Shown here: one piece after another, positions 17,104 through 24,305 of the stretch
Numbering within the stretch: position 1 is the stretch's first letter
Layout: the number at the start of each line of letters is the position of its first letter
Origin: an uncultured bacterium
GTDB taxonomy: Bacteria > Auribacterota > JACPWU01
Length of the DNA: 32,000 nt
Assembly: GCA_964640155.1 (NCBI GenBank)
Contig: CAZXEQ010000005.1
Coordinates: 120,001 to 152,000 of the forward strand
Reading direction: 5' to 3'
The notes under the pieces: generated by a model
Databases searched by the model: none
Seen by the model: only the letters and a program-made list of their open reading frames with translations
Told to the model about the DNA's origin: nothing
Translations under genes and position numbers: made by a program

Positions 17104-18090
17104 TCATGCCTCTGGAAGAACAGCCACACGGGTTTTCCAGAAAATGAGCAAACCCCAACCAATCGCAGCCCAAGAAAGCTCGCGAATCCTTCGAATCAAA
17201 CTGACTGAGACCCCCAAAGCAGCACTAAACCCTAAAAGTGTAAAAATAAAAAAACTACCCCCTTCTTGAGTCCCAATATTGGCAGGAACAATAAAAGCCA
17301 AGCCCCGAATCATTTGATGCAAGGCTTCAATAATAAGAGCATCTTGAAAATTAAAAGGAATGTGTAAAAAATATAGAATTAAATAAATTTCTAAAACTCC
17401 CGCCCACCAACCCAAAAAATGGAAGAAAAAAGAAAGCATAAATCGTTTCTTGTCTTTGCCATAAAAATGAGCGATATGTAATTCTAATTCATGAATGCGA
17501 TGCATGATTTTTGAAAAGAAACTTTTCCCGACATTTAAATGCATCAATCCTTTTGCAATTCCTGAAAAAAGTCCTTTGTCCTGAAAAAATAAAAAAAGAA
17601 GAACGAGTATTGTCAATAAAACAAGAACGATAATCAATGCCAGACGCAAATGAAAAGGAATGGGGAAATTGACAAATGCAAAAATAAGGCCTATCACAAT
17701 AAAGAGAATTTCAGACAATGTCATGGTTGTTTTAGCAACGACCAAAGAAGCTAAACTTTCTGGAGTCGAAAGTCCGTCTCGCTTCAAAAGCGATGCCTTC
17801 ACAGGTTCACCTCCCATATAGCCTGTCGGAGTCGTGTTATTAACGGCTTCTCCAGCAACACGAACCCAATAAAGCCTCCAGAAACTAACGGGACAAACAT
17901 TTGTCTTAAATGAAAATTTCCAACCTAAAGTATCCAGGGCATAAACAAGGGCATACACTAGGAAGAGAATTAAAAACTTCCAGTGAAGCATATGAAATTG
18001 CATCGCAATAGTGGACCAACCCACCCGATGAATCAGATAAATAAATATCGCCAGCCCAATGCTAAGTAAAAGAGATTGTTTAATCTTCAT
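17104..18090 (-). CDS. LPG-synthase-TM / UPF0104 'flippase-like' integral membrane protein
   Basis: 328 aa, about 8 TM helices. The N-terminus KQSLLLSIGLAIFIYLIHRVGWSTI...W..L and the internal VRVAGEAVNNTTPTGYMGGEPVKA are typical of the TIGR00374/MprF-flippase-domain family. Confidence 0.7.
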   Translation of the reverse strand: MKIKQSLLLSIGLAIFIYLIHRVGWSTIAMQFHMLHWKFLILFLVYALVYALDTLGWKFSFKTNVCPVSFWRLYWVRVAGEAVNNTTPTGYMGGEPVKASLLKRDGLSTPESLASLVVAKTTMTLSEILFIVIGLIFAFVNFPIPFHLRLALIIVLVLLTILVLLFLFFQDKGLFSGIAKGLMHLNVGKSFFSKIMHRIHELELHIAHFYGKDKKRFMLSFFFHFLGWWAGVLEIYLILYFLHIPFNFQDALIIEALHQMIRGLAFIVPANIGTQEGGSFFIFTLLGFSAALGVSVSLIRRIRELSWAAIGWGLLIFWKTRVAVLPEA

Positions 18091-18112: not shown

Positions 18113-19486
18113 TTATCCTACTGGAGCTTCTTCCATTTTCAGAATAAGAACCAATATCCAAAAAATATGTACGCCTACGGCTGCAAGATAAACGAAAGGT
18201 TTAAAACCGCCGACAAGAGCAATGAATAAAACCATCAAAGAAAAATCGCCAGCCTTGAAAGTGTCCCAAAATCGAATTACTTTCTCCACTTGAGGATAAG
18301 GAATATAAACATAGTCCTCTTTTCCCTTTTCCTTGAGAACTCTTTTAAACATAAAAATCACAAATGTGATTACAATGCCACAGCTTGCTCCCCCTCCCCA
18401 ATAGAAAATATTTGGACTCATTCCCTGTTTAAAAAGACCCCAAGCGATCGCAGGAAACAACAGAATATGAAGAAGTCCATCTACACCAATATCCAACCAA
18501 CTTCCCCATTGACTTGATAAACCCTTGGCTCGAGCCACTTCACCGTCACAATTATCCAGAACATATACTACTTGGAAAAGAAGGGCCCCAACTACACTTA
18601 GAGTATACGATCCTTGTATAAAACAAGACAGCGCCATAAGGCCTGAAAACAAACTCATGAAAGTAATTTGATTAGGGGTTAATGAAGTTTTTAAAAAAAT
18701 CTTTGTTAAAAACCCTGATAGTCTTCGATTGATTGGGATCATTCGTCTAGAATTTTCCAAGCGATCTATTTTAGGCAAAATGATCTTAAGCGCTTTCTTA
18801 AGATCTTCTTCAAAATCTATCTCTGTCCAAGGTAAATCTCCCACTGTTTCATACCCTGCTTTCTCCTCTTTCAACCATTCATCAAAAAGTTCTTCATATT
18901 CACAGGTTACACGACCTTGATTGTAAAACTCATCTAATTTTTTCTTCAAAGAAGGAAGGCTCTCTTTTGATACTTTCAAAAAACCTACCCCTTCACCCAC
19001 CTTTTCATAAGAGCCCTCTAGTTTTCTTGCAATAGTCAAAACTTGATCTCCACGAACTCCTAATTTCATTTCTTCTCCGCTATCAATGAAGCGATCATCG
19101 AGAAGGAAACAATTCCTATCCTTCGATTGGACCATACGCTCCAACGCCTGAACGGGGAAAAGAACATCTGCATCCATAATCAAAAAATCATCGGACTCTA
19201 AAATATCTCGAGCCACCCACAGCGAAAGAACGCTTCCTTCTCTATAGCGATCATTGAGAAGATAATGGATATTAAGACCTTCAAATGCTGATCCTAATTT
19301 ATTTTGAATTTTTTCTTTAAGATGTCCCACAACAAAATACACATCTTGAACTCCTACTTTTTTAAGGTTCTGAAGCATTCTTTCAGCTAAAGTTATACCC
19401 CCTATTTCTATCATGCATTTAGGAACATAATCGGTATAGGGAGATAATCTTTTACCAATACCTGCAGTAAAAATGAGAGCTTTCAT
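18113..19486 (-). CDS. bifunctional nucleotidyltransferase / CDP-alcohol phosphotransferase (IPCT-DIPPS-like architecture)
   Basis: The N-terminal domain is an NTP-transferase (MKALIFTAGIGKRLSPYTDYVPKCMIEIGG). The C-terminal part, about 210 aa, has about 6 TM helices. It carries the exact motif DGEVAR-x8-G-x3-D-x3-D (nt 18479-18547). Confidence 0.8.
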   Translation of the reverse strand: MKALIFTAGIGKRLSPYTDYVPKCMIEIGGITLAERMLQNLKKVGVQDVYFVVGHLKEKIQNKLGSAFEGLNIHYLLNDRYREGSVLSLWVARDILESDDFLIMDADVLFPVQALERMVQSKDRNCFLLDDRFIDSGEEMKLGVRGDQVLTIARKLEGSYEKVGEGVGFLKVSKESLPSLKKKLDEFYNQGRVTCEYEELFDEWLKEEKAGYETVGDLPWTEIDFEEDLKKALKIILPKIDRLENSRRMIPINRRLSGFLTKIFLKTSLTPNQITFMSLFSGLMALSCFIQGSYTLSVVGALLFQVVYVLDNCDGEVARAKGLSSQWGSWLDIGVDGLLHILLFPAIAWGLFKQGMSPNIFYWGGGASCGIVITFVIFMFKRVLKEKGKEDYVYIPYPQVEKVIRFWDTFKAGDFSLMVLFIALVGGFKPFVYLAAVGVHIFWILVLILKMEEAPVG

Positions 19487-19531: not shown

Positions 19532-20614
19532 TTATACCTTCAGTAATTTCCCTAAACACTTCAAAAATCTATGTATATCTGTCATTCGTAAATCACCCAT
19601 ATTCGCTACACGAAAAATCTGATTTTGCAAGGAGCCTTGTCCTGCATAAATTACAAAACCTTCTTTTTTAAGCTCATCATGCAAGAAAGAATAAGTGATA
19701 CCTTGTGGTAATTTCAAAGCCGTCAACGTGTTAGAGTGATATTTTGAACCAATAAAATATTCTAATCCTAATTTTTTAAATCCTTCTCGAAAATTTTCGG
19801 AATAGCTCTTGTAACGACTGATGCGCTCCTTCACTGTCTCTTTCAAAAGTTCTTCCACAGCCATATCCAAAGCATAAAAAGTCTGAATCGCCGGAGTAAA
19901 GGGAACACCTCCATTTTCCTGTTCTTTCCAATACGCATTCAAGTCTAAATAAAGAGACCGTCGAGGAAAGGCTTTTATCCTTTCGAGTTCGTCTTTTTTA
20001 ATAAGCACAAAAGAAACCCCCGGCAGACCCTGTATACATTTATTGGCTGTTCCTGCACATAAAGAAACTTTCACATTTTTAAAATCAAAAATTTCTCCTC
20101 CAAGTCCACTGATAGAATCTAAAATCAAACGGTGACCTTCCATCCCTTTTAGCTTTGCTATTTTGTGAATGGGATTAAGCATCCCAGTTGAAGTTTCATG
20201 GTGCACCATAGCGACTGTATCAATACTTGAGTCTGCCAATAAAACATCATTTATCTTCTCAAGAGGAAGAGCAGTCCCCAGGGGGACTCTTAGTACTTCT
20301 TTGGGGAAACCATAAAAAGAAACAATAGAATCCATGCGATCTCCATAAACCCCATTGGATAAAACCAAAACTTTTTTCTGAGGATTGAGTCCTGAAACTA
20401 AAGTCGCTTCTAAAGCAACCGTTCCCGACCCAGTCAGAAAAATAGCCGTATAATCCTTTTCAATTCCAAAAGCTTTTAATAAATTTTTTCGGACCTTAAT
20501 AAGAAGATCTGAAAATTCTTTTTCACGATGGCACAAATCTCCCCGTAACAAGGCCTTCTTGACCTTGAGGGAAGTATTAACGGGACCCGGATTTAAGAGA
20601 ACGTATGTAGACAT
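19532..20614 (-). CDS. phnW: class-V aminotransferase, 2-aminoethylphosphonate:pyruvate transaminase type
   Basis: 360 aa. LLNPGPVNTS...LCHREKEF N-terminus, TGSGTVALEA, and a PLP-Lys region AGTANKCIQG. The call is strengthened by context next to PepM/Ppd. Confidence 0.75.
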   Translation of the reverse strand: MSTYVLLNPGPVNTSLKVKKALLRGDLCHREKEFSDLLIKVRKNLLKAFGIEKDYTAIFLTGSGTVALEATLVSGLNPQKKVLVLSNGVYGDRMDSIVSFYGFPKEVLRVPLGTALPLEKINDVLLADSSIDTVAMVHHETSTGMLNPIHKIAKLKGMEGHRLILDSISGLGGEIFDFKNVKVSLCAGTANKCIQGLPGVSFVLIKKDELERIKAFPRRSLYLDLNAYWKEQENGGVPFTPAIQTFYALDMAVEELLKETVKERISRYKSYSENFREGFKKLGLEYFIGSKYHSNTLTALKLPQGITYSFLHDELKKEGFVIYAGQGSLQNQIFRVANMGDLRMTDIHRFLKCLGKLLKV

Positions 20615-20634: not shown

Positions 20635-20737
20635 CCAAATTCCAAACACCAAATAATAACCAAACATACAATTACCAAGAACTCAACATCTTGTTGGTTA
20701 TTAGAAATTGGTGTTTATTTGATTATTGTAATTTGGG
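20635..20737. repeat. long imperfect inverted repeat built of CCAA-phased heptamers (intra-operon hairpin)
   Basis: Left arm CCAAATTCCAAACACCAAATAATAACCAAACA (20635-20666). Right arm TGTTGGTTATTAGAAATTGGTGTTTATTTGATTATTGTAATTTGG (20692-20737). The loop is about 25 nt. The repeat fills the 100-nt ppdB-phnW spacer and runs into the ppdB 3' end. Confidence 0.6.
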
Positions 20738-21305
20738 TTTTGGTATTTGTTTTAACAGCTTTTTTAAATCTTTCTGTCATTTCTTCAGGAGTCCATGTGA
20801 CCCTTTTACAAGATTCACCATCACTGGATTCAACTTTGATTAATAAAAAAGAAGGACCTTCATTTTTCAAAACTTTTTTTAATTTAGCCTCTAATGACTC
20901 ATTCCAGTTCACTTTTTCTACAAAGGCATATCCACAGTCTAAAGCTACTTTTTCTAAGGAAATAAATTTTGAAAGCGTGGGCTGCTCCCCTGTTGAACCA
21001 TAAGCTTCATTATCAAAAACAATATGAATAAAGTTTTTGGGTTTCAGACTTCCCACCATCGCCAATGTTCCCATTCCCATCAAGACACTCCCATCGCCGT
21101 CATAAACAACCACACGTCGCTCCGGGTGAGATAAGGCAACACCCAAAGCAATTGCTGGAGCTAAACTCATAGAACCAATCATATAGAAATTTTCAAGACG
21201 ATCTTGAGCAGAAAAAGATTCTCGACAAATGTGACCATTGGCATGAATCACAAGTTCATCTTTCAAAAGACTAGAAATATATTGAATCGCTTCGATACGT
21301 TTCAT
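20715..21305 (-). CDS. phosphonopyruvate decarboxylase, beta subunit (TPP-binding C-terminal half)
   Basis: ThDP motif GDGSVLMGMGTLAMVGSLKPKNFIHIVFDNEAYGSTG (GDG-x-N). I start it at ATG 21305 (MKRIEAIQY...), 5 nt after the alpha-subunit stop. The longer ORF-track start would overlap the alpha subunit by 82 nt. Confidence 0.8.
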   Translation of the reverse strand: MKRIEAIQYISSLLKDELVIHANGHICRESFSAQDRLENFYMIGSMSLAPAIALGVALSHPERRVVVYDGDGSVLMGMGTLAMVGSLKPKNFIHIVFDNEAYGSTGEQPTLSKFISLEKVALDCGYAFVEKVNWNESLEAKLKKVLKNEGPSFLLIKVESSDGESCKRVTWTPEEMTERFKKAVKTNTKTQITIIK

Positions 21306-21310
21306 AAATT

Positions 21311-21832
21311 TTAATGATTCGCTCCGCCTAAAATTCCTTTTCTCATCAAAAGGGCTGCAGGAATTTTTTTCTCTTCCATTTGTTTCACACAAAAAACCAA
21401 ATCTGTTTCTAAGCTTTCGGCCGTTGGAATGCGATAAGGGATTTTTACTGTATCTAAAAGTTGTGGCGTAATTTCACCCATCACCCAATGTTCAGGAGCA
21501 TCTTTGATCTGATATCCACGAAGGCTGATAATCAGAAGTGTTGGAATTTTGTAAATGAGACTGAGTGAGGTTAATGCATTATAAGAAAGGCCTAGTCCTG
21601 AATTTTGCATCAAGACAACCGGCTTTTTACCTCCTAGCCAAGTACCCACAGCTACGCCCACAGCTGCGTCTTCTCGAATGGCTGGCAAATAGGATTCATG
21701 TGAGCTGATACATTCAATAATATCTTCAAGAAAACTACAGGGAACCCCAGTGAAAAAGTTAAACCCTTGGATTCTAAGTAATTTCCAAAAAGCATGAGCA
21801 AGCTTTGTACACGATGACACCTCGGTCTGCAT
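21311..21832 (-). CDS. phosphonopyruvate decarboxylase, alpha subunit (TPP pyrimidine-binding N-terminal half)
   Basis: 173 aa. FFTGVPCSFL...IREDAAVGVAVGTWLGGKKPVVLMQNSGLG is typical of Ppd/sulfopyruvate decarboxylase ComD-type N-domains. AGGAA RBS precedes ATG 21832. Confidence 0.8.
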   Translation of the reverse strand: MQTEVSSCTKLAHAFWKLLRIQGFNFFTGVPCSFLEDIIECISSHESYLPAIREDAAVGVAVGTWLGGKKPVVLMQNSGLGLSYNALTSLSLIYKIPTLLIISLRGYQIKDAPEHWVMGEITPQLLDTVKIPYRIPTAESLETDLVFCVKQMEEKKIPAALLMRKGILGGANH

Positions 21833-21896: not shown

Positions 21897-23567
21897 TTAT
21901 TTTATATGCGCCCAAGCATGTTGATAATCTTCGAATGTATCTATTTCCATCCAGCCTTTATAAGTATCCACTGCTTTGACCGGATGCCCTTGATCAATTA
22001 ATTCCTGAATCATATCCGTCAAAGAGGCCATGGCTAATGTGGAAGATTCATGAAAAGGTTTAGGGTTTAATTGATTTAGACGTTCATATTCGCTACAAAA
22101 AATTTCTGATCCTTTTGGAGAAAGCATCGCAATACCAATAAATTCACCATGTACATGCGTTCGATCTAAATTTTGTCCGATCTTCAAAATAGCGTGATTG
22201 GCCCCTGTAGGTATATAGCGATACGTCGTTTGTGGAGGCTCTTTCATAATCACGAGTTCTTGCTCAAGCCCTTGAGGGATTTGATCCTGACTATGTGCAT
22301 CTCTCCAAGCTTGATCAACTAAAATAGAAACATCCGCAGGAGACTGAAGCAATTTTTCTAAAAGACTCCGATCAAAAAGTACATCTCCATAAAGAAGAAT
22401 TACTCGATCTTTGATTTCCGGTTGAGCACAGAAGAAGGAAGAAAGAATATAACTTTCTTTATAACGAGAGTTCTCATAATAACGTACATTCGGCAACTGA
22501 ACGGCTTCAGCCTTATATCCTCGTACCACAACAATGTCTTTGATATTGCAAGAATTCAAAACTTCGATTTGTCTTTCTAAAATGGTTTTACCTTTAATAT
22601 CCAACATGCTTTTGGGTTTGTCTTCAATCAAAGGAAGTAAATGTTTCTCAAATCCTGCACTGATAATAATCGCTTTGATTTTTTCTCCTCCAACAGGCAA
22701 AAACTGATCTTCGGCTTCTTTCAATTGATCGACACCTACCAATTCATAGACTTCCTCTAACGACACAACTTTGTCTCGAATCGATTTGGCACAACCTCCC
22801 ATTTTGAGATCTTGTAGAGTTTCACGCATTGCTTTGATAGCTGCCCTAATAGGATGATTTGCAAAAATAATAATTTTAAAACCAGCTTTCTCTAATTCTT
22901 CAGCTGGAGTTTCATCGAAGATAGTGGGAACTACCACTAAAGGAATTTTCTGATCCCATCGTCTGGCAAATTCTTTTACTTCATCGGCAGACTTAGATTT
23001 GGAATGAATAAGTACCGCGTCTGCTCCGGCCGCTGCAAATGCGCGTCCCCGTTTAAGGGCTTCTTCCATCCCCCAACCTGCAATCAAAGCCTCTGTGCGT
23101 GCAATCAAAATAAAATCAGGATTTTTTTGAGTAGCTTTTCCAGCCCGAATCCTTCCCTGCATTTCCTCAATAGGAACAAGCTCTCTTTGAAAACCAGGAT
23201 AGAAACTACATCGTTTAGGGAAAATATTATCTTCAATACAAATCCCAGCAATCCCCGCTGCTTCATATTCTGAAACGGTTCTCATTACATTCACCGCGTT
23301 GCCGTAACCATTATCGCAATCTGCAATCACAGGAAGGGAACTGGCTCTATCAATATTCTGAGCAATTTCTAAATTCTCTGTCATCGTCATGTAATTGGCA
23401 TCGGGGAGACATTTTTGAGCTGCGGAAATACCAAATCCCCCAGCCCAAATAGCATCGAAACCTGCTTCTTCAATCAATTTAGCACTCATAGCATCATGAG
23501 CCCCGACTGCAAGAATCGATTTTGAATTATTGAGAAGCGCTTTTAATTTTCGAGATTTTTCGTACAT
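21897..23567 (-). CDS. pepM: phosphoenolpyruvate mutase fused to a nucleotidyltransferase (PntC/LicC-like) domain
   Basis: aa 1 to about 292 are PEP-mutase-like (WAGGFGISA, DCDNGYGN, ARTEALIAGWGMEEALKRGRAFAAAGADAVLIHSK, VVSLEEVYEL). aa about 296-556 are an NTP-transferase (KAIIISAGFEKHLLPLIEDKPKSMLDIKGKTILE). The diagnostic loop reads EDNIFPKRCS instead of EDKxxxxxNS. Confidence 0.8.
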   Translation of the reverse strand: MYEKSRKLKALLNNSKSILAVGAHDAMSAKLIEEAGFDAIWAGGFGISAAQKCLPDANYMTMTENLEIAQNIDRASSLPVIADCDNGYGNAVNVMRTVSEYEAAGIAGICIEDNIFPKRCSFYPGFQRELVPIEEMQGRIRAGKATQKNPDFILIARTEALIAGWGMEEALKRGRAFAAAGADAVLIHSKSKSADEVKEFARRWDQKIPLVVVPTIFDETPAEELEKAGFKIIIFANHPIRAAIKAMRETLQDLKMGGCAKSIRDKVVSLEEVYELVGVDQLKEAEDQFLPVGGEKIKAIIISAGFEKHLLPLIEDKPKSMLDIKGKTILERQIEVLNSCNIKDIVVVRGYKAEAVQLPNVRYYENSRYKESYILSSFFCAQPEIKDRVILLYGDVLFDRSLLEKLLQSPADVSILVDQAWRDAHSQDQIPQGLEQELVIMKEPPQTTYRYIPTGANHAILKIGQNLDRTHVHGEFIGIAMLSPKGSEIFCSEYERLNQLNPKPFHESSTLAMASLTDMIQELIDQGHPVKAVDTYKGWMEIDTFEDYQHAWAHIK

Positions 23568-23600
23568 AAGCTGACAACCTTATTAAAAATAACAGTTCAT

Positions 23601-23726
23601 GAAACCTCTCAAAAAGGTCCCAGATGCAAGGCGCACGCAAGCGACTGAGGAGGCGTACGTTTACTGGTACGCAGCACAAAGAAGCGCAGCGAGCAACACA
23701 GCAGATGGGCCTTTTTCAGAGATTTC
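23601..23726. repeat. 126-nt GC-rich palindromic intergenic element, copy B
   Basis: Same length and orientation as 9719-9844. Termini are GAAACCTCTCAAAAAGGTCCCA ... TGGGCCTTTTTCAGAGATTTC. It lies 33 nt upstream (minus-strand sense) of the pepM start codon. Confidence 0.85.
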
Positions 23727-23730
23727 TTTT

Positions 23731-23777
23731 AATAAAAAGCCCCGGCTCTTCTAACAATAGAAAAGCCAGGGCTTTTA
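23731..23777 (-). terminator. Rho-independent terminator downstream of tpx (potentially bidirectional)
   Basis: The stem AGCCCCGGCT (23738-47) / AGCCAGGGCT (23764-73) pairs 9/10 with a 16-nt loop. On the minus strand it is followed by TTTTTATT and on the plus strand by TTTTAT. Confidence 0.7.
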
Positions 23778-23786
23778 TAAACCGAC

Positions 23787-24305
23787 TTACACCTTTTGCT
23801 TCAGTGTACTCAAGACTTCTTCATAATTTGGTTCATGAGTCACTTCTTTAACAATCTGAATATAAGAGATTTTGTCATTAGCATCGATGATGACAATCGC
23901 TCGGGTCAAAAGACGTAACTCTTTGATCAAAAGACCATAGGCTTGACCAAAAGAAAGATCTCGATGATCGGAAAGAAATTTGATTCGATCAGCTTTTGCT
24001 ACACCACACCAACGGGCTTGAGCAAATGGCAAATCGCAACTAACGGTATAAACTTGAATATTGGAAGGGAAATTAGCTGCTTCCTGATTAAAACGCTTGG
24101 TTTGAATATCGCAAACCGGTGTATCTAATGAAGGAACTACATTTAAAAGACGTGTTTTACCTTTTGAGCTAGCTAAGGTGACCGGTGAAAGATCATTACC
24201 TAACAATTGAAATTCTGGTGCTTTATCTCCCACTTTGAGCTCTGGACCTACAAGCGTCAAGGGGCCTCCTTTAAAAGTCACGGCTGCTTTTCGTTCTTGA
24301 GACAT
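23787..24305 (-). CDS. tpx: thiol peroxidase (atypical 2-Cys peroxiredoxin)
   Basis: VVPSLDTPVCD peroxidatic-Cys motif, a second Cys in ARWCG, and the length (172 aa). A strong GGAGG RBS precedes ATG 24305. Confidence 0.9.
   Translation of the reverse strand: MSQERKAAVTFKGGPLTLVGPELKVGDKAPEFQLLGNDLSPVTLASSKGKTRLLNVVPSLDTPVCDIQTKRFNQEAANFPSNIQVYTVSCDLPFAQARWCGVAKADRIKFLSDHRDLSFGQAYGLLIKELRLLTRAIVIIDANDKISYIQIVKEVTHEPNYEEVLSTLKQKV

What the first reader, a model, noticed from the sequence alone, without database searches (positions are those of the whole stretch)
23205..23234. PepM homologue with a non-canonical diagnostic loop: EDNIFPKRCS instead of EDKxxxxxNS
The N-terminal part, about 290 aa, resembles PEP mutase along its whole length by eye (WAGGFGISA, DCDNGYGN, ARTEALIAGWGMEEALKRG...GADAVLIHSK, VVSLEEVYEL...AEDQFLP). 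At the position of the PepM signature EDKxxxxxNS (EDKLFPKTNS in the mussel enzyme as I recall it), this protein reads E112-D-N-I-F-P-K-R-C-S121. The motif Lys is Asn and the motif Asn is Cys. This creates a KRC tripeptide reminiscent of the K(K/R)CGH catalytic loop of isocitrate and methylisocitrate lyases. The EDKx5NS motif is commonly used to filter true PepMs in phosphonate genome mining. This gene would fail that filter even though it sits directly upstream of Ppd and an AEP transaminase. Either the motif is more plastic than assumed, or this enzyme has altered chemistry.
Basis: partly seen in the sequence, partly recalled or inferred. Interest (0 to 1): 0.6.

Follow-up and report, generated by a model that had tools for sequence, protein, structure and literature searches.

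The report
PEP mutase with cysteine lid variant
This gene very probably encodes a working carbon-phosphorus bond-forming enzyme (PEP mutase) from a large, conserved group whose active-site lid reads EDN...CS instead of the "diagnostic" EDK...NS, so the motif filters used to count phosphonate-producing microbes overlook it.

Summary
Codons 23205-23234 (minus strand) read EDNIFPKRCS and align without gaps to EDKxFPKxNS of solved PEP mutases. An independent sludge metagenome carries identical DNA, so this is not a sequencing error.

All 120 closest database relatives (62-96% identical) carry ED(N/S)xxPKxCS. Genome loci place the variant in at least ten phyla.

Every other residue that separates PEP mutase and phosphonopyruvate hydrolase from the lyases is kept. 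These are the Mg ligands, Lys118, Ser121, Arg157 and His188. The model superposes on PepM 5UNC at 0.9 A.

The gene heads an aminoethylphosphonate-lipid operon. Neither this genome nor five others with the variant has a canonical PepM. Variant and canonical genes never co-occur in 380 genomes sampled.

Asn114 pairs with Arg128 where canonical enzymes pair Lys with Gln. That looks like a charge swap, as in the lyases.

My verdict is a functional PepM, probability about 0.75, and a new variant of a known kind. Its chemistry is untested, and Cys120 may matter.

This scan has already reported the same clade on other genomes. One marine survey (Acker et al.) already tolerated two motif mismatches next to Ppd.

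The parts
21897..23567 (-). Whole gene, 556 aa: PEP-mutase domain fused to a MobA/LicC-like nucleotidyltransferase (PntC-type) domain
   Evidence: ORF. PF13714 206.6 bits over aa 8-254 and PF12804 42 bits over aa 317-418. AlphaFold2 model mean pLDDT 93.
22698..23567 (-). PepM domain (aa 1-290)
   Evidence: phmmer: 5UNC PepM 282.5 bits, PPH 2DUA 247.2, mussel PepM 242.2, lyases 136 or less. Foldseek: 5UNC TM 0.97, rmsd 0.9 A. TIGR02320 280.5 bits, below the cut-off of 319.55.
23205..23234 (-). Gating-loop motif E112-D-N-I-F-P-K-R-C-S121, at the position of EDKx5NS
   Evidence: Conserved as ED(N/S)x(F/Y)PK(R/K/Q)CS in 120 of 120 nearest homologues.
23226..23228 (-). Asn114 codon (AAT). Canonical PepM and PPH have Lys here; lyases have Gln.
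23208..23210 (-). Cys120 codon (TGT). Canonical PepM has Asn (mussel Asn122), PPH has Thr, lyases have the catalytic Cys.
   Evidence: Identical in the independent run X2.
23184..23186 (-). Arg128 codon (AGA). Arg in 96% of the variant class, against Gln in 86-97% of EDK-type enzymes and Lys in 76% of lyases. Putative charge-swap partner of position 114.
   Evidence: Pair counts: K-Q 108, N-R 55, Q-K 22, K-R 1, N-Q 1.
22746..22748 (-). Tyr274 codon. Tyr accompanies Cys120 (47 rows); Phe accompanies Asn120 (97 rows).
23439..23441 (-). Gly43 codon. The nearly invariant Ser of PepM and PPH (WxSG) is Gly in this gene and its closest relatives only.
   Evidence: (WAGGF in 7 of 120, WASGF in 108).
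21897..22682 (-). Nucleotidyltransferase (PntC-like) domain, aa 296-556
   Evidence: PF12804 and PF00483. Best solved relative is LicC CTP:phosphocholine cytidylyltransferase 1JYK, E 1.2e-9.
21311..21832 (-). Phosphonopyruvate decarboxylase, alpha half (split Ppd)
   Evidence: TIGR03297 positions 1-156, 134 bits.
20715..21392 (-). Phosphonopyruvate decarboxylase, beta half. These are the longest-ORF coordinates; the true start is probably further downstream.
   Evidence: TIGR03297 positions 158-358, 184.2 bits.
19532..20614 (-). 2-aminoethylphosphonate aminotransferase
   Evidence: TIGR03301 355.2 bits.
18113..19486 (-). Second nucleotidyltransferase fused to a CDP-alcohol phosphatidyltransferase
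   Evidence: PF12804, PF00483 and PF01066.
17104..18090 (-). Flippase-like membrane protein (LPG_synthase_TM / HpnL-like)
   Evidence: PF03706 138 bits; TIGR03476 192.1 bits.

Best explanation
The N-terminal 290 residues are a functional phosphoenolpyruvate mutase. It converts PEP to phosphonopyruvate, and the split decarboxylase encoded next door pulls that unfavourable equilibrium forward. The transaminase then makes 2-aminoethylphosphonate. The fused and the second nucleotidyltransferase domains activate it with CTP. The CDP-alcohol-type transferase and the flippase-like protein put it on a membrane lipid.

The enzyme belongs to a large conserved lineage with a different lid. The Lys of EDK is Asn, and its charge appears to be supplied by Arg128 at the other end of the loop. 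The phosphoryl-contacting Asn is Cys, accompanied by Tyr274.

Shown here: the sequence facts, clade conservation, operon context and the absence of any other PepM. Inferred: the catalytic activity, the charge swap as a physical contact, and the role of the Cys.
For: (1) The alignment to solved PepMs and PPH is ungapped. PepM is the best hit (5UNC 282.5 bits, against 136 or less for lyases). The model superposes on 5UNC with TM 0.97 and rmsd 0.9 A; lyases give rmsd 2.2-3.2 A.

(2) All residues shared by PepM and PPH are kept: W41, D56, D83, D85, E112, K118, S121, R157, E159, H188, N237, R241. Lyases have Glu at 188 and Asp at 159. Only five columns differ consistently from the EDK..NS class: 45, 114, 120, 128 and 274.

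(3) The loop is conserved in 120 of 120 nearest homologues. Genome loci place it in Nitrospirota, Myxococcota (including cultured Sorangium cellulosum So ce56), Planctomycetota, Acidobacteriota, Binatota, Omnitrophota, Rokubacteria and Thermodesulfobacteriota. Source names on the protein hits add Chlamydiota and Tectomicrobia.

(4) 15 of 21 variant loci have split Ppd within 9 kb, mostly with AEPT and a second NT. Three of the four full-flank exceptions have a split Ppd elsewhere in the genome. Canonical EDKLYPKTNS fusions (L023, L025) have the same gene order.

(5) The own genome is 97% complete and has only one other PF13714 gene, a PrpB in a prpD-prpB-prpC cluster. Five other variant genomes, including two complete ones, also lack any EDK..NS gene.

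(6) Variant and canonical motifs never share a genome. Counts were 4 variant, 4 canonical and 0 with both in 79 genomes of the own phylum. In 301 Nitrospirota they were 13, 64 and 0.

(7) Identical DNA occurs in an independent sample, and small contigs from RNA libraries lie on pepM and the transaminase gene (a weak hint only).
Against: No member of the clade has been assayed in anything I could find.

From my recollection of the mussel enzyme work (Liu et al. 2002, cited in PMC7916636; not readable here), Asn122 is one of the residues implicated in holding the phosphoryl group. The Asn-to-Thr difference is the change most authors link to the switch from mutase to hydrolase in PPH. So a substitution at this position could change the chemistry.

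A thiol beside C3 of the pyruvate enolate is the general acid in the lyases. In a mutase it could quench the intermediate.

The gene scores below the TIGR02320 cut-off. This gene also has Gly at the nearly invariant Ser43.

The mutual exclusion involves related genomes and gives only about p = 0.05 even if they are treated as independent.
Confidence: 0.75

Rival explanations
1. Same net reaction, different mechanism or control. The enzyme still makes phosphonopyruvate, but Cys120 is chemically active. It could act as a transient phosphoryl acceptor (S-phosphocysteine), which would also give retention at phosphorus. Or it could be a redox or thiol switch that closes phosphonate synthesis under oxidative stress.
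For: The Cys is invariant in every member examined, which is more than a neutral replacement would need. It sits at the position that contacts the phosphoryl group in PepM and that carries the catalytic thiol in lyases. It goes with a Phe-to-Tyr change at 274. On the PepM side of the tree, other residues occur at this position (Asn, Ser, His, Thr), so it is a site where chemistry is tuned.
Against: There is no direct evidence. The accepted PepM mechanism is dissociative and needs no enzyme nucleophile (PMC7916636). EDN..NS and EDN..CS proteins interleave on the tree, as if Cys and Asn were interchangeable. The coupling tests had no statistical power.
Confidence: 0.12
2. Different reaction. The domain is not a mutase but a lyase- or hydrolase-type enzyme acting on phosphonopyruvate or another 2-oxo acid, for example P-C or C-C cleavage with Cys120 as the proton donor. 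Phosphonopyruvate would then come from elsewhere.
For: The KRC tripeptide is identical to the lyase loop. The gene scores below the TIGR02320 cut-off and nearly as well on the PPH model (280.5 against 259 bits). With lyases as outgroup, EDN-type lineages branch nearest the lyases.
Against: No other source of phosphonopyruvate exists in six genomes that nevertheless keep Ppd and downstream genes. The lyase general-base Glu is His188 here, as in PepM. The Gly-His after the Cys is Ser-Phe. The gene is fused to an anabolic cytidylyltransferase and heads a biosynthetic operon whose order matches that of canonical PepM fusions. A phosphonopyruvate hydrolase would undo the pathway.
Confidence: 0.09
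3. Catalytically dead PepM-like domain, kept as a scaffold or oligomerisation module for the nucleotidyltransferase.
For: Two signature residues are missing. In this gene the conserved Ser43 is also Gly.
Against: All metal- and substrate-binding residues are invariant across phyla. The loop itself is under strong conservation. Stand-alone proteins of about 300 aa with the same loop exist without any fused domain (P0127, P0136, P0149, P0203, P0220, P0243).
Confidence: 0.03
4. Sequencing or assembly error at the two codons.
For: None.
Against: An independent metagenome contig is identical over 22490-23800. The same residues occur in 120 homologues and in three other genomes of the same family.
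Confidence: 0.01

Closest known systems
Canonical phosphoenolpyruvate mutase (PepM/Ppm, EC 5.4.2.9; Mytilus edulis 1PYM/1M1B, Streptomyces platensis 5UNC; TIGR02320)
   Same: Fold (TM 0.97 to 5UNC). 39-49% identity over the whole domain with no gaps at the loop. Mg ligands D56/D83/D85/E112, Lys118, Ser121, Arg157 and His188. Genomic coupling to Ppd and AEP transaminase. Fusion to a PF12804 nucleotidyltransferase, as in about a third of known Ppm (PMC6697681).
   Different: EDK Lys is Asn114. Asn122-equivalent is Cys120. Gln130-equivalent is Arg128. Phe is Tyr274. Scores below the TIGR02320 cut-off. Activity never tested.
Phosphonopyruvate hydrolase (PalA, Variovorax 2DUA/2HRW; TIGR02321)
   Same: Same branch of the superfamily. 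43% identity and TM 0.95. Shares Phe45 with the variant class. Shows that one change at the Asn122 position accompanies a change of reaction.
   Different: PPH keeps the EDK Lys and has Thr, not Cys. It sits in catabolic contexts without Ppd or NT neighbours (L027-L058). Score 259 against a cut-off of 374.4.
2-Methylisocitrate lyase / isocitrate lyase (PrpB 1MUM; ICL), loop EDQxxxK(K/R)CGH
   Same: Superfamily fold. Neutral amide after ED. K-R-C tripeptide in register. A cationic residue at position 128.
   Different: About 30-33% identity and rmsd 2.2-3.2 A. The lyase Glu188 is His here. Gly-His after Cys is Ser-Phe. The genome has its own separate PrpB (EDQIPAKKCGH) in a prp cluster.
Ppm-PntC fusions of AEP/phosphonolipid clusters (Rice et al. 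2019, PMC6697681; 'CDP-OH' gene-cluster families of Li and Horsman 2022, PMC8942020)
   Same: Architecture PF13714+PF12804. A second NT and CDP-alcohol transferase genes nearby. Predicted CMP-AEP intermediate.
   Different: Those inventories required a perfect EDKX5NS. 22 fused PF13714 proteins without the motif were discarded as non-Ppm, which is where this clade would fall.

Membership tests
PEP mutase (PepM/Ppm, EC 5.4.2.9) | PEP mutase/ICL alpha-beta barrel fold, closest to PepM among solved structures | tested here: met
   PF13714 206.6 bits. 5UNC 282.5 bits. Foldseek TM 0.97, rmsd 0.9 A.
PEP mutase (PepM/Ppm, EC 5.4.2.9) | Mg-binding acidic residues (mussel D58, D85, D87, E114) | tested here: met
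   D56, D83, D85 and E112 are invariant in the variant class.
PEP mutase (PepM/Ppm, EC 5.4.2.9) | Phosphoryl-binding Arg159 and His190, plus loop Lys120 and Ser123 | tested here: met
   R157, H188, K118 and S121 are conserved. Lyases have Glu at 188 and Gly at 121.
PEP mutase (PepM/Ppm, EC 5.4.2.9) | Signature EDKx5NS (Lys116 and Asn122) | tested here: not met
   The loop reads EDNIFPKRCS.
PEP mutase (PepM/Ppm, EC 5.4.2.9) | Score above the curated cut-off of NCBIfam TIGR02320 | tested here: not met
   280.5 against 319.55. Clade members from Sorangium score 292.2 and from Nitrospiraceae 283.5. The canonical fusion L023 scores 379.5.
PEP mutase (PepM/Ppm, EC 5.4.2.9) | Genomic coupling to a phosphonopyruvate-consuming enzyme (Ppd), and no other PepM in the genome | tested here: met
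   Ppd halves lie directly downstream. 15 of 21 loci have Ppd nearby, and 3 of 4 exceptions have it elsewhere. No canonical PepM in 6 genomes.
PEP mutase (PepM/Ppm, EC 5.4.2.9) | Catalysis of PEP to phosphonopyruvate | not testable with these tools
   Needs an enzyme assay or 31P-NMR.
Isocitrate / methylisocitrate lyase branch | Loop EDQxxxK(K/R)CGH with catalytic Cys followed by Gly-His, and the general-base Glu (PrpB Glu188) | tested here: not met
   K-R-C is present, but it is followed by Ser-Phe. Position 188 is His. PrpB model scores 199.9 against a cut-off of 354.4.
Phosphonopyruvate hydrolase (TIGR02321) | EDKxFPKxTS loop, catabolic context, score above cut-off | tested here: not met
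   Asn and Cys instead of Lys and Thr. 259 against 374.4 bits. The operon is anabolic.
PntC-type phosphonate cytidylyltransferase (PF12804 fused to Ppm) | MobA/LicC-like NTP-transferase domain C-terminal to Ppm | tested here: met
   PF12804 42 bits against a cut-off of 27. Best solved relative is LicC 1JYK. Substrate specificity not tested.

The most novel reading that the evidence does not exclude
The EDN...CS enzymes are a surviving intermediate between the C-C lyases and the canonical P-C mutases. They keep the lyase-style lid (neutral amide at 114, cationic residue at 128, thiol at 120). They make the C-P bond with a chemically active cysteine, for example through a phosphocysteine intermediate or as a redox-gated step. 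PEP mutase chemistry would then not be tied to the Asn-based, purely dissociative active site described for the mussel enzyme.
Probability: 0.12. Interest if true: 0.8.

Novelty: new variant of a known kind. Interest (0 to 1): 0.55.

Why it matters
PepM is the marker gene for nearly all surveys of biological phosphonate production, in genome mining for antibiotics and in marine and soil phosphorus cycling. Several surveys require a perfect EDKx5NS (PMC6697681, PMC8942020, PMC12723261).

If this clade is active, those counts are systematically low. In my samples the variant adds 13 genomes to 64 canonical ones in Nitrospirota. It accounts for half (4 of 8) of the PepM-type genomes in this bacterium's own phylum.

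Even the relaxed 'two mismatches if next to Ppd' rule of Acker et al. would miss this gene. Its Ppd is split into two halves, and each scores under the TIGR03297 cut-off.

Mechanistically, a natural Asn-to-Cys replacement sits at a residue thought to hold the migrating phosphoryl group, in register with the lyase catalytic Cys. It gives a ready-made test of how the mutase, hydrolase and lyase activities of this superfamily diverged.

Tried and rejected
(1) Mis-registered loop or a second canonical motif elsewhere: rejected. The alignment is ungapped and the PepM domain has no other ED-x3-P loop.

(2) Sequencing error: rejected.

(3) A canonical PepM elsewhere in the genome: not found. The only other PF13714 gene is PrpB. 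In the Rokubacteria genome two further strong PF13714 hits turned out to be loop-less distant members (IEDATGEE), not PepM.

(4) A resolved phylogeny showing the variant as the ancestral state: not achieved. The IQ-TREE backbone on the PepM side is mostly unsupported. Only the split from the lyases (98) and small groups are firm. The 'intermediate' reading therefore rests on residue states, not on tree order.

(5) Phylogenetically controlled test of the 114/128 and 120/274 couplings: no power. Only 1-3 independent pairs lie on supported branches, so the couplings are reported as raw counts only.

(6) Literature on the variant, on phosphonates in Nitrospira, or on phosphonolipids in Sorangium: nothing found. 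The primary mussel PepM and PPH papers are not held. Statements on Asn122 therefore rest on a review (PMC7916636) and on my memory.

(7) Transcription: only five short contigs in RNA libraries. They cannot exclude DNA carry-over.

(8) A sulfopyruvate/taurine pathway was considered, because the split decarboxylase also resembles ComDE. I set it aside because the operon carries two CTP-type nucleotidyltransferases and a CDP-alcohol transferase, and because canonical PepM fusions use the same split decarboxylase.

(9) Structure coordinates are not returned by the tools, so I could not measure Cys120-substrate, Asn114-Arg128 or Cys120-Tyr274 distances.
Full report
**Observation.**

The minus-strand ORF 21897-23567 encodes 556 residues. 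Codons 23205-23234 translate to EDNIFPKRCS, residues 112-121. Pfam finds PEP_mutase over residues 8-254 (206.6 bits) and a MobA-like NTP transferase over 317-418.

phmmer against all solved structures aligns residues 3-290 with no gap near the loop:

| Protein | Loop |
|---|---|
| Query | IEDNIFPKRCSF |
| 5UNC (PepM) | IEDKRFPKVNSF |
| Mussel PepM 1M1B | LEDKLFPKTNSL |
| Phosphonopyruvate hydrolase 2DUA | MEDKTFPKDTSL |

A contig from an independent sludge metagenome of another study covers 22490-23800 with no difference. The codons are therefore real.

**It is a clade, not an oddity.**

All 120 nearest proteins in the 5.8-billion-protein collection are 62-96% identical in the PepM domain. All read ED(N/S)x(F/Y)PK(R/K/Q)CS.

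In species-representative genomes the same loop occurs in 21 loci. They come from:
- Nitrospirota
- Binatota
- Omnitrophota
- Acidobacteriota
- Myxococcota, including the cultured, completely sequenced Sorangium cellulosum So ce56
- Rokubacteria
- Thermodesulfobacteriota
- Planctomycetota

A full HMMER scan of 1.84 billion cluster representatives shows that the loop is not binary. I classified the 227 PepM-domain rows pooled from that scan, the genome loci and a few close relatives. The EDK..TS/SS and lyase rows come mostly from the genome loci.

| Loop class | Rows |
|---|---|
| EDK..NS | 90 |
| ED(N/S)..CS | 49 |
| EDK..TS/SS (hydrolase type) | 32 |
| EDN..NS | 15 |
| EDQ..NS | 3 |
| EDN..HS | 2 |
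| EDx..SS (x not K) | 3 |
| Lyases, EDQ..CG | 29 |

On a FastTree built without the loop columns, positions 114 and 120 each change state at least 14-15 times on the PepM side.

**What is kept and what is changed.**

Column-by-column comparison shows that the variant class keeps every residue shared by PepM and PPH: W41, D56, D83, D85, E112, K118, S121, R157, E159, H188, N237 and R241. At two of these the lyases differ: Glu at 188 and Asp at 159.

Only five columns differ consistently between the Cys class and the EDK..NS class:

| Position | Cys class | EDK..NS class |
|---|---|---|
| 45 | F | L |
| 114 | N | K |
| 120 | C | N |
| 128 | R | Q |
| 274 | Y | F |

Positions 114 and 128 go together over the 227 rows. 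The pair counts are K-Q 108, N-R 55, Q-K 22, K-H 10 and Q-R 8. K-R and N-Q occur once each.

So where the lysine of EDK is absent, a cationic residue sits ten positions after the Lys118 that all classes share, at the far end of the gating loop. The lyases have the same arrangement (Gln114, Lys128). I read this as a charge swap across the base of the lid. The phylogenetically controlled test also has no power: only 1-3 independent pairs lie on supported branches.

Cys120 likewise goes with Tyr274 (47 rows), against Asn120 with Phe274 (97 rows).

The AlphaFold2 model of the full protein is confident (mean pLDDT 93). Confidence dips to 69 at residues 121-130, as expected for a mobile lid. Its PepM domain superposes as follows:

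| Target | TM | rmsd (A) |
|---|---|---|
| 5UNC (PepM) | 0.97 | 0.9 |
| Mussel PepM and PPH | about 0.95 | 1.5-2.1 |
| Lyases | 0.84-0.90 | 2.2-3.2 |

**Context.**

Directly downstream on the same strand lie five genes:
- the two halves of a split phosphonopyruvate decarboxylase (TIGR03297 positions 1-156 and 158-358)
- an AEP aminotransferase (TIGR03301, 355 bits)
- a second nucleotidyltransferase fused to a CDP-alcohol phosphatidyltransferase
- a flippase-like membrane protein

The fused C-terminal domain is most like LicC (1JYK). That is the PntC type which Rice et al. found fused to a third of Ppm enzymes (PMC6697681).

Among the 21 variant loci, 15 have the split decarboxylase within 9 kb, mostly with the transaminase and a further NT. 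Two of the remaining six are cut by contig ends. Of the four with full flanks, three have a split Ppd elsewhere in the genome. The fourth is a 0.9-Mb fragmentary MAG.

Canonical EDKLYPKTNS fusions from Chromatiaceae (L023, L025) have the same gene order.

**No alternative source of phosphonopyruvate.**

The own genome is 97% complete and has two PF13714 genes. One is this gene. The other is a PrpB with EDQIPAKKCGH, lying between prpD and prpC.

Five other variant genomes have only lyase-type or loop-less PF13714 paralogues besides the variant. They include Sorangium So ce56 and a complete Nitrospirales chromosome.

A DNA-pattern census gave the counts below. Reversed-pattern controls were all zero.

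| Sample | Genomes | Variant | Canonical | Both |
|---|---|---|---|---|
| Own phylum | 79 | 4 (all in the own family) | 4 (three other families) | 0 |
| Nitrospirota | 301 | 13 | 64 | 0 |

If the two were independent, about 2.8 of the 13 Nitrospirota genomes would be expected to carry both, which gives p of about 0.05. Relatedness makes even that optimistic, so it is supportive but not decisive.

**Mechanism.**

The most economical reading is a working PEP mutase, with probability about 0.75. The lid differs in two ways:
- The charge of Lys116 (mussel numbering) is relocated to Arg128.
- The amide that helps hold the migrating phosphoryl group is replaced by a thiol, perhaps assisted by Tyr274.

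The steps after it are ordinary inferences from family membership: decarboxylation, transamination, CMP activation and transfer to a lipid.

Two points keep the matter open:
- The Asn122 position is the one most authors connect with the mutase/hydrolase difference between PepM and PPH (review PMC7916636).
- The Cys is in exact register with the general-acid Cys of the lyases.

The Cys is invariant in the clade although Asn, Ser, His and Thr occur at this site in neighbouring lineages. I therefore give about 0.12 to a chemically active Cys (covalent or redox-gated) with the same net reaction. I give about 0.09 to a different reaction, about 0.03 to a dead domain and about 0.01 to a sequencing error.

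**Peculiarity of this particular gene.**

Ser43 (mussel Ser46) is conserved in 86-100% of all PepM and PPH classes. Here it is Gly, as in six of the closest relatives (WAGGF in 7 of 120, WASGF in 108). Its persistence across proteins down to about 69% identity suggests it is tolerated. It is a further reason to assay this orthologue alongside a WASGF one.

**Comparison with what is known.**

Three studies use a perfect EDKX5NS as the definition of Ppm. Rice et al. discarded 22 fused PF13714 proteins that lack it. This clade would fall among those.

Acker et al. (bioRxiv 10.1101/2020.11.04.368217) already accepted sequences lacking up to two motif residues if a Ppd (TIGR03297, trusted cut-off) lay within 5 kb. 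The idea that the motif can vary is therefore not new. That rule would still miss this gene, because its Ppd halves score 134 and 184 bits against a cut-off of 312.5.

Dharamshi et al. (PMC9666466) noted 'PepM' clusters in sponge chlamydiae and guessed at fosfomycin, without remark on the loop.

NCBI's TIGR02320 cut-off (319.55) excludes the clade: the query scores 280.5, Sorangium 292.2 and Nitrospiraceae 283.5, while canonical L023 scores 379.5. Most NCBI records accordingly say only 'isocitrate lyase/PEP mutase family protein'.

I found no paper describing the EDN..CS class or testing a member.

**Earlier reports of this scan.**

This scan has reported the same 'cysteine lid' clade on several other genomes, with the same conclusion. 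My results were obtained independently here and agree.

What this report adds:
- the 114/128 and 120/274 couplings
- the spectrum of loop classes
- the failure of the relaxed Ppd-adjacency rule with split Ppd
- the Gly43 peculiarity
- the census in this bacterium's own phylum

**Verdict.**

The gene is a new variant of a known kind. It is of moderate to good interest, because it bears on how phosphonate producers are counted and offers a natural experiment on the PepM active site. Its biochemistry remains untested.

Noticed in passing
window 23439-23441 (Gly43 of the PepM domain): The nearly invariant Ser of the W-x-S-G substrate-binding turn of PepM and PPH is Gly in this gene and in six close relatives (WAGGF). 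The other 108 of the 120 homologues have WASGF.
   Followed up: partly
window 23608-23725 (leader between tpx and pepM): In the independent DNA run X2, several contigs break or diverge inside the leader. One joins 23624 to 23699, skipping 74 nt. Point differences occur at 23648, 23664, 23673 and 23687.
   Followed up: no
G000 contig C10, 21437-25159 (locus L002): A prpD - prpB - prpC (2-methylcitrate cycle) cluster. Its PrpB (EDQIPAKKCGH) is the only other PEP-mutase-superfamily gene of the genome.
   Followed up: partly
Representative proteins P0134, P0143, P0152, P0159, P0171, P0175, P0186, P0197, P0209 (EDN..NS); P0130, P0215 (EDN..HS); P0190, P0225, P0254 (EDx..SS): Further uncharacterised loop classes on the PepM side of the superfamily, many of them stand-alone proteins of about 300 aa. 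These also fail the EDKx5NS filter. Their contexts were not examined.
   Followed up: no
L006:10723-11688 (Binatia) and L007 (Omnitrophota): Two variant loci without a nearby Ppd have different neighbours. In Binatia the gene downstream is squalene-hopene-cyclase-like. In the Omnitrophota contig the neighbours are polysaccharide or capsule synthesis genes and a methyltransferase. This hints at other phosphonate end products.
   Followed up: partly
window 22678 (RNA-library contig of run X17): The single metatranscriptome contig on the gene (22617-22877) carries one extra T behind 22678. At depth 2.9 in one contig it is most likely an error.
   Followed up: no
G385 contig C180, 39408-39911: The Ppd alpha half of the Planctomycetota genome that holds L016 is read through one in-frame TGA in the six-frame match. 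This could be a gene boundary, a frameshift or recoding.
   Followed up: no
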